From positions 1-28,407 of the IMG/VR virus record IMGVR_UViG_2778260996_000020: DNA of 28,407 bases, one strand, 5' to 3'. A program made the translations under genes and the position numbers. The notes beneath the pieces are model-generated. The model saw only the letters and a program-made list of their open reading frames with translations. It had not been told where the DNA came from and ran no database searches. Positions 8,653 through 9,559 of this stretch are shown one piece after another. Position 1 is the stretch's first letter. Each line of letters begins with the position of its first letter. The DNA is from a virus. Lineage: Duplodnaviria; Heunggongvirae; Uroviricota; Caudoviricetes.

Positions 8653-8955
8653 TTAGCGGTTGCTCAAACGTCTATAACGAAGATGAGCGATCCCCCTATT
8701 TGTGCTAACGGTAATTACCGCCCCTTGCGGTGCAATACAAGAATGAATCTGTCCCCAATCATGACCCTTATGGCTTCCAGAAACACACAAACCATGAATA
8801 AGCAATTCAGAGTCACCACCGCCACCACCGGAAGAATGAGCACAGAATGAAATAGTCCCGAAAGCGTCGGCTGTCCAACCGTTAGGAATATCAAACCATC
8901 CTTGATTTGCTTTACCCGCCCTATTCCCAAAAGCGCCATCTACCCAAAATGCCAT
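8653..8955 (-). CDS. Hypothetical protein, FDIPNGW-motif paralog 3 of 3, 100 aa
   Basis: Gly/His-rich small protein sharing N-terminal MxxW and FDIPNGW motifs with the two upstream ORFs. Start overlaps upstream stop. Confidence 0.55.
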   Translation of the reverse strand: MAFWVDGAFGNRAGKANQGWFDIPNGWTADAFGTISFCAHSSGGGGGDSELLIHGLCVSGSHKGHDWGQIHSCIAPQGAVITVSTNRGIAHLRYRRLSNR

Positions 8956-9260
8956 TAGTGCATTCTCCTGAATTTAAAATAATGCAAACTACCTTTACCC
9001 AATGTAAAGCTAACGGTAGCACCAGCGCCAACTAAAGAACTAGCGCCCCAACTCCCAGCATCACCAGCATGATGACCTGATTCAATCAATCCATTTACAG
9101 CCAATTCAGAATCAAGACCACCAGCACCGTTAATGGCTTCCATATGAGCAAAAACAATTCCGCATGAATCAGTAACCCAGCCGTTGGGGATATCAAAATA
9201 TCCACCATTAGCCCAAATACTAATAGCGTTTGACATTCTTTGATTTATCCATCCAGCCAT
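8955..9260 (-). CDS. Hypothetical protein, FDIPNGW-motif paralog 2 of 3, 101 aa
   Basis: Same family as 8653-8955 and 9263-9559 (YFDIPNGW, Gly-rich core, C-terminal YFKF). Tightly coupled. Confidence 0.55.
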   Translation of the reverse strand: MAGWINQRMSNAISIWANGGYFDIPNGWVTDSCGIVFAHMEAINGAGGLDSELAVNGLIESGHHAGDAGSWGASSLVGAGATVSFTLGKGSLHYFKFRRMH

Positions 9261-9262
9261 AA

Positions 9263-9559
9263 TTAAAACTCCATGAATTTAAAATATTCAACACCACCTT
9301 CACCCCCTAAACCAAAGGAGACGGTGCAGCCAGCAGGAACAAACGAATTTATAGTAGATCCCCAATTGGTCCCACCACGACGACGAGCAACGGTCAAACC
9401 ATCTACGTTAATATGTGCATCAGACCACCCACCACCAGCATTATGACGCATTACAGCGACACCAGCACGAGCAGTACCATAGCCGTTAGGAATATCAAAT
9501 ACATGCCATTTTAAAGCATCGATTTTAGTATTAATTTCACTACTTACCCAATATCCCAT
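9263..9559 (-). CDS. Hypothetical protein, FDIPNGW-motif paralog 1 of 3, 98 aa
   Basis: VFDIPNGY motif, Gly-rich, C-terminal YFKF. TAAGGA SD. Immediately downstream of the fiber gene. Confidence 0.55.
   Translation of the reverse strand: MGYWVSSEINTKIDALKWHVFDIPNGYGTARAGVAVMRHNAGGGWSDAHINVDGLTVARRRGGTNWGSTINSFVPAGCTVSFGLGGEGGVEYFKFMEF

What the first reader, a model, noticed from the sequence alone, without database searches (positions are those of the whole stretch)
8653..9559. Three tandem paralogous ~100 aa genes with FDIPNGW motif between fiber and tail tube genes
Three consecutive, translationally coupled ORFs share an N-terminal M-x-x-W, a (Y/V)FDIPNG(W/Y) motif, a Gly/His-rich core and a C-terminal aromatic-basic end, yet are diverged elsewhere. 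I do not recognise the family. Triplication beside a fiber gene suggests a multi-copy structural accessory or a set of specificity adaptors or chaperones.
Basis: partly seen in the sequence, partly recalled or inferred. Interest (0 to 1): 0.65.

Follow-up and report, generated by a model that had tools for sequence, protein, structure and literature searches.

The report
Three-gene tail-fibre tip cap module
Three small related genes always sit in the same order behind a self-cleaving phage tail-fibre gene; they probably build a three-part knob on the fibre tip, in place of the single gp38 adhesin of T2-like phages, and the family has no annotation or literature.

Summary
Three tightly coupled minus-strand ORFs are true paralogs under purifying selection: A at 9559-9263, B at 9260-8955 and C at 8955-8653. 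They belong to the fibre gene, not to the tail tube. In about 25 loci the order is always S74 self-cleaving fibre, then A, B, C. These loci are E. coli and Salmonella siphovirus prophages, three T4-like Krischvirus myoviruses and three distant metagenomic lineages.

In the Krischviruses the trio fills the slot between gp37 and the holin gene, where T2-like phages carry the gp38 adhesin. The one such genome checked in full has no gp38.

The window fibre ends in DVYIR^SDRRLK. This is the strand that, after release of the chaperone domain, is described as the gp38 docking face.

AlphaFold2 models give a weakly predicted N-terminal helix with a near-terminal Trp, followed by a compact jelly roll. 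The jelly roll is closest to C1q/TNF heads and to phage fibre knobs. Conserved residues lie at the end that holds both termini; indels lie in the loops at the opposite end.

Best reading (confidence 0.45): a 1:1:1 heterotrimeric knob that caps the matured fibre tip as a split, gp38-like adhesin. No library names the family. Virion presence and stoichiometry are untested, and one viable phage carries a broken module.

The parts
9598..12963 (-). Side tail fibre gene, 1121 aa. About the first 300 aa are specific to this prophage. From about aa 307 onward it is homologous to the distal fibre gp37 of T4-like phages.
   Evidence: Pfam Gp34_trimer 5.8e-15 and Peptidase_S74 5e-15; phrog_1699 long tail fibre distal subunit 1e-138. 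Megablast match to Krischvirus G37-3 over window 8637-12042.
9934..9948 (-). Codons for D-V-Y-I-R (aa 1006-1010). This is the predicted new C-terminus of the mature fibre and the presumed docking strand.
   Evidence: Sequence ...NGNFNDVYIR^SDRRLK. PMC7917993 describes DVYIR^SDGRLK as the autocleavage site, with the DVYIR strands of the trimer forming the gp38 docking face.
9601..9933 (-). Intramolecular chaperone (Peptidase_S74) domain, aa 1011-1121. It begins with the S-D-R-R-L-K motif (Ser nucleophile and Lys) and is predicted to be released by autocleavage.
   Evidence: Pfam PF13884 over aa 1011-1070. Aligned to the chaperone part of S16 gp37, PDB 6F45_A, E 5e-6.
9572..9591 (-). GC-rich 8-bp hairpin in the 38-nt spacer between the fibre stop codon and the Shine-Dalgarno sequence of A. 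It has no T-run.
   Evidence: RNA fold: centroid structure (the hairpin alone) -13.3 kcal/mol; z-score -2.66 for the whole 61-nt stretch. A role as attenuator or stabiliser is speculation.
9263..9559 (-). Paralog A (98 aa). It always comes first and ends in FKFMEF.
   Evidence: AF2 model pLDDT 85, jelly roll. Best PDB matches are C1q-like and TNF heads.
8955..9260 (-). Paralog B (101 aa). It always comes second. Salmonella versions carry an N-terminal extension containing RIPxxGW.
8653..8955 (-). Paralog C (100 aa). It always comes third, and its start overlaps the stop codon of B by 1 nt.
8128..8598 (-). Tail tube gene (context only, not part of the module), followed by a terminator-like hairpin at 8119-8100.
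   Evidence: phrog_158 1.4e-20 and Phage_TTP_12. Terminator scan.

Best explanation
A, B and C are three non-redundant subunits of one fibre-tip cap.

Mechanism, shown or established in the literature: the fibre folds as a homotrimer with the help of its C-terminal S74 intramolecular chaperone, which then cleaves itself off after ...DVYIR. In T2/S16-like phages this exposes a flat triangular end with three equivalent hydrophobic pockets.

Mechanism, inferred: one copy each of A, B and C assemble into a pseudo-threefold C1q/TNF-like knob. Each subunit contributes an N-terminal amphipathic helix whose near-terminal Trp plugs one of the three pockets. The conserved end of the knob, which holds both termini, the FDIPNGW motif and the NG and PxG turns, faces the fibre. 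The indel-rich loops at the other end point outwards and contact the host surface.

Functionally this is a gp38-type detachable adhesin split over three chains. Tight translational coupling would deliver the three chains in equal amounts.
For: (1) Invariant linkage. In about 25 loci from at least 7 sequence lineages the order is S74 fibre, A, B, C, with 1-4 nt gaps or overlaps between the genes, and positional orthology is kept down to 25-45% identity.

(2) The gp38 slot. In Krischvirus G37-3, G2248 and UPWr_E1 the trio lies between gp37 and the holin gene t. Tequatrovirus ACG-C40 has a T2-type gp38 in that position, and the last 60 aa of its gp37 before the cleavage site differ from the window fibre at one residue. 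tblastn finds gp38 in 807 phage records, including a Krischvirus (FL04) at 86% identity over the N-terminal 148 aa, but finds none in the complete G37-3 genome or in the window.

(3) Same docking platform. All E. coli and Salmonella fibres linked to the trio end in D(V/I)YIR^SD, although their distal domains are of at least three unrelated types. The literature places the gp38 docking face on these strands, with three Trp prongs at the tips of three helices (PMC6851490; PMC7917993).

(4) Fold. AF2 models (pLDDT 85-86) show a weakly predicted N-terminal helix plus a jelly roll. The best matches are C1q and TNF heads and the C1q-like knobs of phage fibres. Members of that fold class are usually trimers, and C1q itself is an A/B/C heterotrimer (own knowledge).

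(5) Polarity of conservation. The conserved positions are W4, GxFDIPNGW at 20-28, G34, G57, G80 and the C-terminal motif; all lie at the end of the sandwich that holds the termini. All indels lie in loops 42-48, 64-69 and 90-91 at the opposite end (with the secondary structure).

(6) Each paralog keeps its own signature across lineages, for example A ending ...MEF and B and C ending ...RR... All three are under purifying selection, with dN/dS 0.04-0.36.
Against: There is no direct evidence that the proteins are in virions or that they form a hetero-oligomer.

Similarity to gp38 is not statistically detectable. hhalign's best local alignment does place the N-terminus of the family on the second Trp helix of gp38, but with probability 0.24% and E 0.25.

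The trio is more conserved than the distal fibre domains it accompanies, and its allele groups are shuffled relative to the fibre tip types. In gp38 systems it is the adhesin that varies.

The lytic phage KFS-EC carries only an A::C fusion with a frameshift, so the module is not essential for plaque formation by that phage.

Trp4 is replaced by L, Y or Q in some distant A and C members.
Confidence: 0.45

Rival explanations
1. A, B and C are three alternative caps. Each forms its own homotrimer and caps a different copy of the fibre, so one virion carries fibres with three specificities.
For: The fold class commonly forms homotrimers. The three proteins differ most in the presumed outward-facing loops. 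They sit in the same genomic slot as the gp38 adhesin.
Against: No locus carries 1, 2 or 4 intact copies, and none has a changed order. Independent interchangeable adhesins would be expected to vary in number and to shuffle. Instead the A-B-C order and the tight coupling are fixed across lineages that have diverged to 25-45% identity. Each paralog also keeps its own signature at the conserved end of the sandwich, which points to complementary rather than equivalent roles.
Confidence: 0.15
2. A, B and C are fibre-assembly chaperones that act on the nascent fibre and are absent from the virion, like T4 gp38, gp57A or lambda Tfa.
For: They lie directly downstream of a fibre gene, the usual place for fibre chaperones. 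They are more conserved than the distal fibre domains. They are dispensable in KFS-EC.
Against: The fibre already carries its own S74 intramolecular chaperone. There is no hit to any chaperone family in Pfam, PHROGs or NCBIfam. The predicted fold is a fibre-knob jelly roll rather than a known chaperone fold. A need for three distinct chaperones at fixed 1:1:1 dosage has no precedent known to me.
Confidence: 0.15
3. The trio is a non-structural cargo (moron) carried with the fibre, for example a superinfection-exclusion, receptor-masking or lysis-associated protein set.
For: It is rare and patchy in distribution: 3 of 50,697 phage records and 24 of 5,426 complete E. coli genomes. It lies next to the holin gene in the myoviruses. 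There are weak fold matches to XepA and YomS. It has been lost in KFS-EC.
Against: The proteins have no signal peptide, lipobox or membrane segment; the maximum 19-residue Kyte-Doolittle hydropathy is 0.9. There is no PADLOC hit. In the prophages the genes lie inside the late structural operon, between the fibre and tube genes, with no promoter-like site in the fibre-A spacer. Linkage is to the S74 fibre whatever the neighbouring genes are.
Confidence: 0.08
4. The three proteins are tail completion, terminator or tube-associated proteins of the siphovirus tail.
For: In the window they lie just upstream of the tail tube gene.
Against: The same trio, at 95% nucleotide identity, follows gp37 in T4-like myoviruses, which carry their own tail completion genes elsewhere in the genome. 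In one metagenomic lineage the trio is followed by another fibre-like gene rather than a tube gene. There is no hit to terminator or completion families.
Confidence: 0.02

Closest known systems
gp38 adhesin of T2/T6/S16-like phages (PDB 6F45)
   Same: It is encoded immediately after a gp37-type fibre that ends in an S74 intramolecular chaperone. It docks, as shown for gp38 and inferred here, on the end exposed by autocleavage after ...DVYIR or ...DLNVS. The attachment uses Trp residues at the tips of helices, three per fibre trimer. gp38 and the trio are mutually exclusive in the one genome checked in full.
   Different: gp38 is one chain of about 260 aa with three internal Trp helices, a beta-helix and a polyglycine-II sandwich with hypervariable loops. 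Here there are three chains of about 100 aa, each with one helix and a C1q-like jelly roll. No sequence similarity is detectable. Variability is much lower than in gp38.
C1q/TNF-like globular heads, including the heterotrimeric C1q A/B/C head, the collagen VIII/X NC1 domains and BclA
   Same: A compact jelly-roll sandwich that provides the best structural matches. This fold class is typically trimeric. C1q is built from three paralogous chains encoded in tandem (own knowledge).
C-terminal knob domains of phage tail fibres and C1q-domain phage proteins (BFVD hits)
   Same: The same fold is used as the distal, receptor-facing end of trimeric fibres.
   Different: In those proteins the knob is the C-terminal domain of the fibre chain itself, so the trimer is a homotrimer. 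Here the knob is encoded separately, as three different genes.
Tail fibre assembly proteins (lambda Tfa, Mu/P2 gpU/G, T4 gp38, gp57A)
   Same: The genes lie directly downstream of the fibre gene.
   Different: There is no sequence or fold relationship. The fibre has its own intramolecular chaperone.

Membership tests
T2/S16-type gp38 adhesin | Detectable sequence homology to gp38 (conserved N-terminal attachment domain, glycine-rich motifs) | tested here: not met
   hhalign of the family profile against ACG-C40 gp38 gives probability 0.24%, E 0.25. tblastn with gp38 gives no hit in the window or in G37-3.
T2/S16-type gp38 adhesin | Single chain of about 260 aa with a beta-helix and a polyglycine-II sandwich | tested here: not met
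   The proteins are 98-101 aa. The AF2 models show a helix plus a 6-8 strand jelly roll.
T2/S16-type gp38 adhesin | Gene directly downstream of a gp37-type fibre whose S74 chaperone is cleaved after a DVYIR- or DLNVS-type strand | tested here: met
   literature.
T2/S16-type gp38 adhesin | Three conserved Trp residues at helix tips that fill three pockets of the gp37 trimer | tested here: inconclusive
   Each of A, B and C has one near-N-terminal Trp (nearly invariant, at 90% or more) ahead of a predicted helix with low pLDDT. Docking could not be modelled.
C1q/TNF superfamily | Match to the Pfam C1q or TNF profile | tested here: not met
   No Pfam hit at E up to 1.
C1q/TNF superfamily | Jelly-roll fold superposable on C1q or TNF heads | tested here: inconclusive
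C1q/TNF superfamily | Trimeric assembly | not testable with these tools
Tail fibre assembly chaperones (Caudo_TAP/Tfa, T4 gp38, gp57A) | Profile match to a chaperone family | tested here: not met
   No hit in Pfam, PHROGs or NCBIfam.
Tail completion / terminator proteins | Profile match, and conserved position within a tail morphogenesis module irrespective of the fibre | tested here: not met
   No profile match. The trio follows the fibre into myovirus genomes and into unrelated contexts.
Peptidase_S74 intramolecular-chaperone fibres (the partner gene, not the trio) | C-terminal S74 domain beginning with the S-D-x-R-x-K Ser/Lys motif | tested here: met
   PF13884 at 5e-15 over aa 1011-1070, with SDRRLK at aa 1011-1016. 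The same holds for every partner fibre examined.

The most novel reading that the evidence does not exclude
This would be the first heterotrimeric phage adhesin. Three paralogous C1q-like chains, encoded in tandem like the C1q A/B/C chains, would assemble 1:1:1 into a detachable receptor-binding knob. The knob would dock through three single Trp helices on the end of a homotrimeric fibre exposed by release of its intramolecular chaperone. That would be a second, independent solution to the problem gp38 solves with one chain carrying three internal Trp helices. The whole cassette is exchanged between temperate siphoviruses and virulent T4-like myoviruses.
Probability: 0.35. Interest if true: 0.8.

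Novelty: new variant of a known kind. Interest (0 to 1): 0.62.

Why it matters
Host range in T-even-like phages is now being predicted and re-engineered through gp38 (PMC12032242; bioRxiv 10.64898/2026.04.02.716166). Those schemes have no entry for gp38-less phages such as G37-3, G2248 and UPWr_E1, the last of which is used in poultry phage cocktails.

If the trio is the tip adhesin, it is the missing receptor-binding determinant for these phages and for a family of E. coli and Salmonella prophage side fibres. It would also provide a small, modular 3 x 10 kDa scaffold for retargeting fibres.

It would further show that a 3-fold fibre end can be capped either by a pseudo-trimeric single chain or by a true heterotrimer. 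The cassette is 95% identical at the nucleotide level between a temperate siphovirus prophage and a virulent myovirus, a clear case of recent exchange of fibre tips across morphotypes and lifestyles.

Tried and rejected
- **Library searches.** Pfam, PHROGs, NCBIfam and PADLOC searches with all three proteins gave nothing significant. The only near-hits were phrog_9116 'tail protein' at E 0.008 and phrog_746 at E 0.05 for A.
- **PDB sequence search.** A profile search of PDB sequences found only the designed 'Pizza' propeller proteins, through a repeated PNGxxxDSAG motif, with each single stretch at E above 60. I judged this a chance motif match inflated by repetition.
- **Search of 1.84 billion representatives.** Four long repeat proteins scored through summed repeats. 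The three whose sequences I inspected are repetitive eukaryote-like proteins unrelated to the family, so I rejected these hits as spurious.
- **GTDB representative genomes.** No locus was found.
- **Homology to gp38.** The hhalign comparison was not significant.
- **Complex modelling.** The afdb50 fold library was unavailable.
- **Literature.** Searches on Krischvirus with gp37/gp38, G37-3, UPWr_E1, KFS-EC and C1q-like heterotrimers returned no paper that mentions these genes.
- **Tail completion reading.** Rejected on genomic context.
- **Membrane or secreted protein reading.** Rejected on hydropathy.

Full report
**Observation.**
The finding sits on the minus strand. In the direction of transcription the order is:
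- fibre (12963-9598, 1121 aa)
- A (9559-9263, 98 aa)
- B (9260-8955, 101 aa)
- C (8955-8653, 100 aa)
- tail tube (8598-8128)
- G and T chaperones
- tape measure.

A and B are 2 nt apart. B and C overlap in TAATG. The three proteins are clear paralogs: BLASTP gives 1.7e-12, 1.4e-8 and 1.8e-14, and they share 19 invariant columns, including W4 and FDIPNG. They are soluble 10.5-kDa proteins with 17% glycine and no membrane segment. Each is under purifying selection, with dN/dS 0.04-0.36.

**Where the window comes from.**
The trio with its flanks (window 8600-9600) is 99.8% identical to chromosomal DNA of several E. coli strains. The same stretch occurs in 24 of 5,426 complete E. coli genomes. It is always chromosomal and always annotated 'hypothetical protein (x3)' next to a 'tail fiber domain-containing protein'. 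The surrounding genes define a siphovirus prophage:
- lambda-type terminase and portal
- a protease-capsid fusion
- connector proteins
- a pb9-like distal tail protein
- a J-like tip protein.

**The family.**
No Pfam, PHROG, NCBIfam or PADLOC model recognises A, B or C. A word-indexed search of 5.8 billion proteins found 35 clusters. All named ones come from Escherichia, Shigella or Salmonella, and every name is 'hypothetical protein'. A full HMM scan of 1.84 billion representatives found 19 hits. Fifteen are proteins of about 100 aa; the other four are long repeat proteins, and the three I inspected are spurious. Among 50,697 phage records, B is found in three, all Krischvirus. I found no paper that mentions these genes.

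**The trio belongs to the fibre.**
The distal two thirds of the fibre together with A, B and C match the T4-like myovirus vB_EcoM_G37-3. Identity is 95% over the trio and 87% over the longer stretch 8637-12042. The rest of the window has no close relative among phages. In G37-3, G2248 and UPWr_E1 the trio lies between gp37 and the holin gene t. That is the position of gene 38.

In every other context I could retrieve, the order is an S74-bearing fibre, then A-type, B-type and C-type genes, with gaps or overlaps of 1-4 nt. These contexts are:
- E. coli prophages L003-L006 and L015-L022
- Salmonella-type prophages L007 and L029-L033
- three distant metagenomic lineages, L023-25, L026-27 and L028.

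Score matrices show positional orthology: the first gene is always closest to A, the third to C and the second to B. This holds down to 25-45% identity. The triplication is therefore old, the order is fixed, and each copy has been kept. In one metagenomic lineage the downstream neighbour is another fibre-like gene rather than a tube gene. The constant partner is thus the fibre.

Only two loci depart from the pattern. KFS-EC has A residues 1-91 fused to a C fragment, followed by a frameshift. L021 has a truncated B.

**What the partner fibres share.**
The fibres linked to the trio carry at least three unrelated distal domains. Allele groups of the trio are shuffled relative to these tip types. 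The constant elements are the last strand and the S74 domain:
- NDVYIR^SDRRLK in the window
- RDIYIR^SDIRVK in G2248
- DVYYR^SD, NYFLR^SD and DIMMR^SD in the distant lineages.

In the 60 residues before the cleavage site, the window fibre differs from gp37 of Tequatrovirus ACG-C40 at one residue. That phage carries a T2-type gp38 adhesin directly downstream.

The literature gives the following picture. In S16 and related phages the chaperone domain cleaves itself off. This exposes the gp38 docking face. DVYIR^SDGRLK is the corresponding site in the fPS phages. [quoted passage not shown]

gp38 is easy to detect. tblastn finds it in 807 phage records, including the Krischvirus FL04 at 86% identity over the N-terminal 148 aa. 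The complete G37-3 genome and the window have none. In that genome at least, the trio and gp38 are alternatives at the same slot, behind the same kind of fibre end.

**Structure.**
AF2 models of B (pLDDT 86) and A (pLDDT 85) agree. The first 20 residues have low confidence (pLDDT 50-64) and are predicted helical, fully in B and partly in A. They are followed by a confident beta sandwich of six main strands.

- Foldseek places A nearest to C1QL2, TNF and C1q.
- Against viral models, the best matches to B include phage 'C1q domain-containing' proteins, tail-fibre proteins and collagen-repeat proteins.

The scores are modest, and carbohydrate-binding modules and GOLD domains score similarly. This is a resemblance of fold, not a demonstration of homology.

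**Polarity of conservation.**
I combined the strand order with per-column conservation over 46 distinct sequences. The following all lie at one end of the sandwich:
- both termini
- the GxFDIPNGW segment
- the NG turn (G57)
- the PxG turn (G80)
- the C-terminal aromatic motif.

Every indel, and much of the variability, lies in loops 42-48, 64-69 and 90-91 at the other end. A conserved proximal base with variable distal loops is the usual layout of a receptor-binding head. The assignment of loops to ends is inferred from the alternation of strands, because I had no coordinates to inspect.

**Mechanism proposed.**

*Shown here*
- The linkage of the trio to the S74 fibre.
- Its position in the gp38 slot.
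- The shared cleavage strand.
- The predicted fold.
- The polarity of conservation.

*Established in the literature*
- Autocleavage of the chaperone domain.
- Docking of gp38 through Trp prongs.

*Inferred*
- One A, one B and one C form a pseudo-threefold knob.
- Their three N-terminal helices form a short neck.
- The near-terminal Trp of each helix (position 3 if the initiator Met is removed, which the small second residue favours) enters one pocket of the matured fibre end.
- The variable loops face the host.

*Arguments for a heterotrimer rather than three homotrimers*
- The copy number and order never vary.
- Translational coupling is conserved even in distant lineages.
- Each paralog has its own conserved signature at the conserved end of the sandwich.
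- The partner has threefold symmetry.
- There is the precedent of C1q (own knowledge).

*A small hint of covariation*
Where the docking strand is D(V/I)YIR, all three proteins have Trp. In the DVYYR and DIMMR lineages A and C have L, Y or Q at that position, while B keeps Trp. With about five lineages this is only a hint.

**Evidence against.**
- Nothing shows that the proteins are in virions.
- Similarity to gp38 is not significant: hhalign's best alignment places the N-terminus of the family on gp38's second Trp helix (LGVPCWMSQFAG), but with probability 0.24%.
- The trio is more conserved than the distal domains it accompanies. The opposite holds for gp38. The fibre's own distal domain may therefore be the main specificity determinant, with the trio binding something conserved or serving as a cap.
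- KFS-EC forms plaques with a broken module, unless that record contains sequencing errors.

These points keep my confidence at 0.45 for the heterotrimeric cap. The rivals score 0.15 for alternative homotrimeric caps, 0.15 for non-virion chaperones, 0.08 for non-structural cargo and 0.02 for tail completion proteins.

**Comparison with the known, and novelty.**
The module works like gp38 but is not a gp38: it fails on sequence, size and fold. It looks like a C1q or TNF head, but membership of that superfamily is not established. It is not a known chaperone or a tail completion protein.

I rate it a new variant of a known kind. The known kind is a separately encoded tip protein for fibres that mature through an intramolecular chaperone. 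Here that role would be filled by an undescribed family whose constant triplication is its most unusual feature.

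Noticed in passing
window 13035-13868 (-): The 277-aa ORF just upstream of the fibre matches the same PHROG (phrog_158, major tail protein, E 3.4e-9, aa 11-154) as the 156-aa tube gene downstream of the trio. The two proteins show no BLASTP similarity to each other. The fibre-plus-trio block is therefore flanked by two tube-like genes. The longer one, with its C-terminal extension of about 120 aa, might be the anchor for the side fibre.
   Followed up: partly
L002 (KFS-EC, MH560358) locus 3842-4268: In KFS-EC, A residues 1-91 are fused at a GG(E/G)GG stretch to residues of about 45-66 of C. A frameshift follows, and the tail of C remains in another frame. B is deleted. 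The module is therefore broken in an isolated lytic phage.
   Followed up: yes
L021 locus 6001-6222: One IMG/VR prophage has B truncated after 73 aa. The cause is a frameshift or an assembly error.
   Followed up: no
window 9598-10643 compared with L001, L003-L010: The same trio accompanies fibres with at least three unrelated distal domains, and allele groups of the trio are shuffled relative to the tip types. Homology with gp38-bearing Tequatrovirus gp37 ends about 45 nt before the fibre stop codon. The conserved chaperone domain therefore looks like the recombination joint for swapping downstream cassettes.
   Followed up: partly
L007, L029-L031, L033, and proteins P0027, P0028, P0031-P0034: In the Salmonella-type prophages, B carries an N-terminal extension of about 10-30 aa that ends in (A/S)RIPxxG(H)W. 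This resembles the (V/I)PGW context of the first Trp of gp38.
   Followed up: no
window 9572-9591 (-), 12991-13010 (-), 8100-8119 (-): A GC-rich hairpin without a T-run lies between the fibre stop codon and the Shine-Dalgarno sequence of A. G2248 has an annotated terminator in the same spacer. Terminator-like hairpins bracket the fibre-A-B-C-tube unit. The hairpin could lower expression of the trio relative to the fibre, which would fit a 3:1:1:1 complex.
   Followed up: partly
window 14769-16772 (-): The prohead protease (Peptidase_S78, aa 40-162) and the major capsid protein (Phage_capsid, aa 410-664) are fused in one 667-aa ORF. The related prophages have the same fusion.
   Followed up: no
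window 7363-8045 (-): The pair of tail assembly chaperone genes (TAC_13-like at 8045-7737 and Phage_tail_T-like at 7704-7363) are separate ORFs 32 nt apart. I did not check whether a programmed frameshift joins them.
   Followed up: no
window 23700-25255: This stretch of about 1.5 kb has no ORF of 80 aa or more on either strand. It lies on the side of the window that also holds a Rha/anti-repressor-like gene (21857-22699). I did not examine it.
   Followed up: no
L023 locus 1375-4895: In one metagenomic lineage the trio is followed by a 902-aa fibre-like protein, a 90-aa protein with a hydrophobic N-terminal segment, and the N-terminus of yet another fibre. This is a multi-fibre locus of a different virion type.
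   Followed up: no
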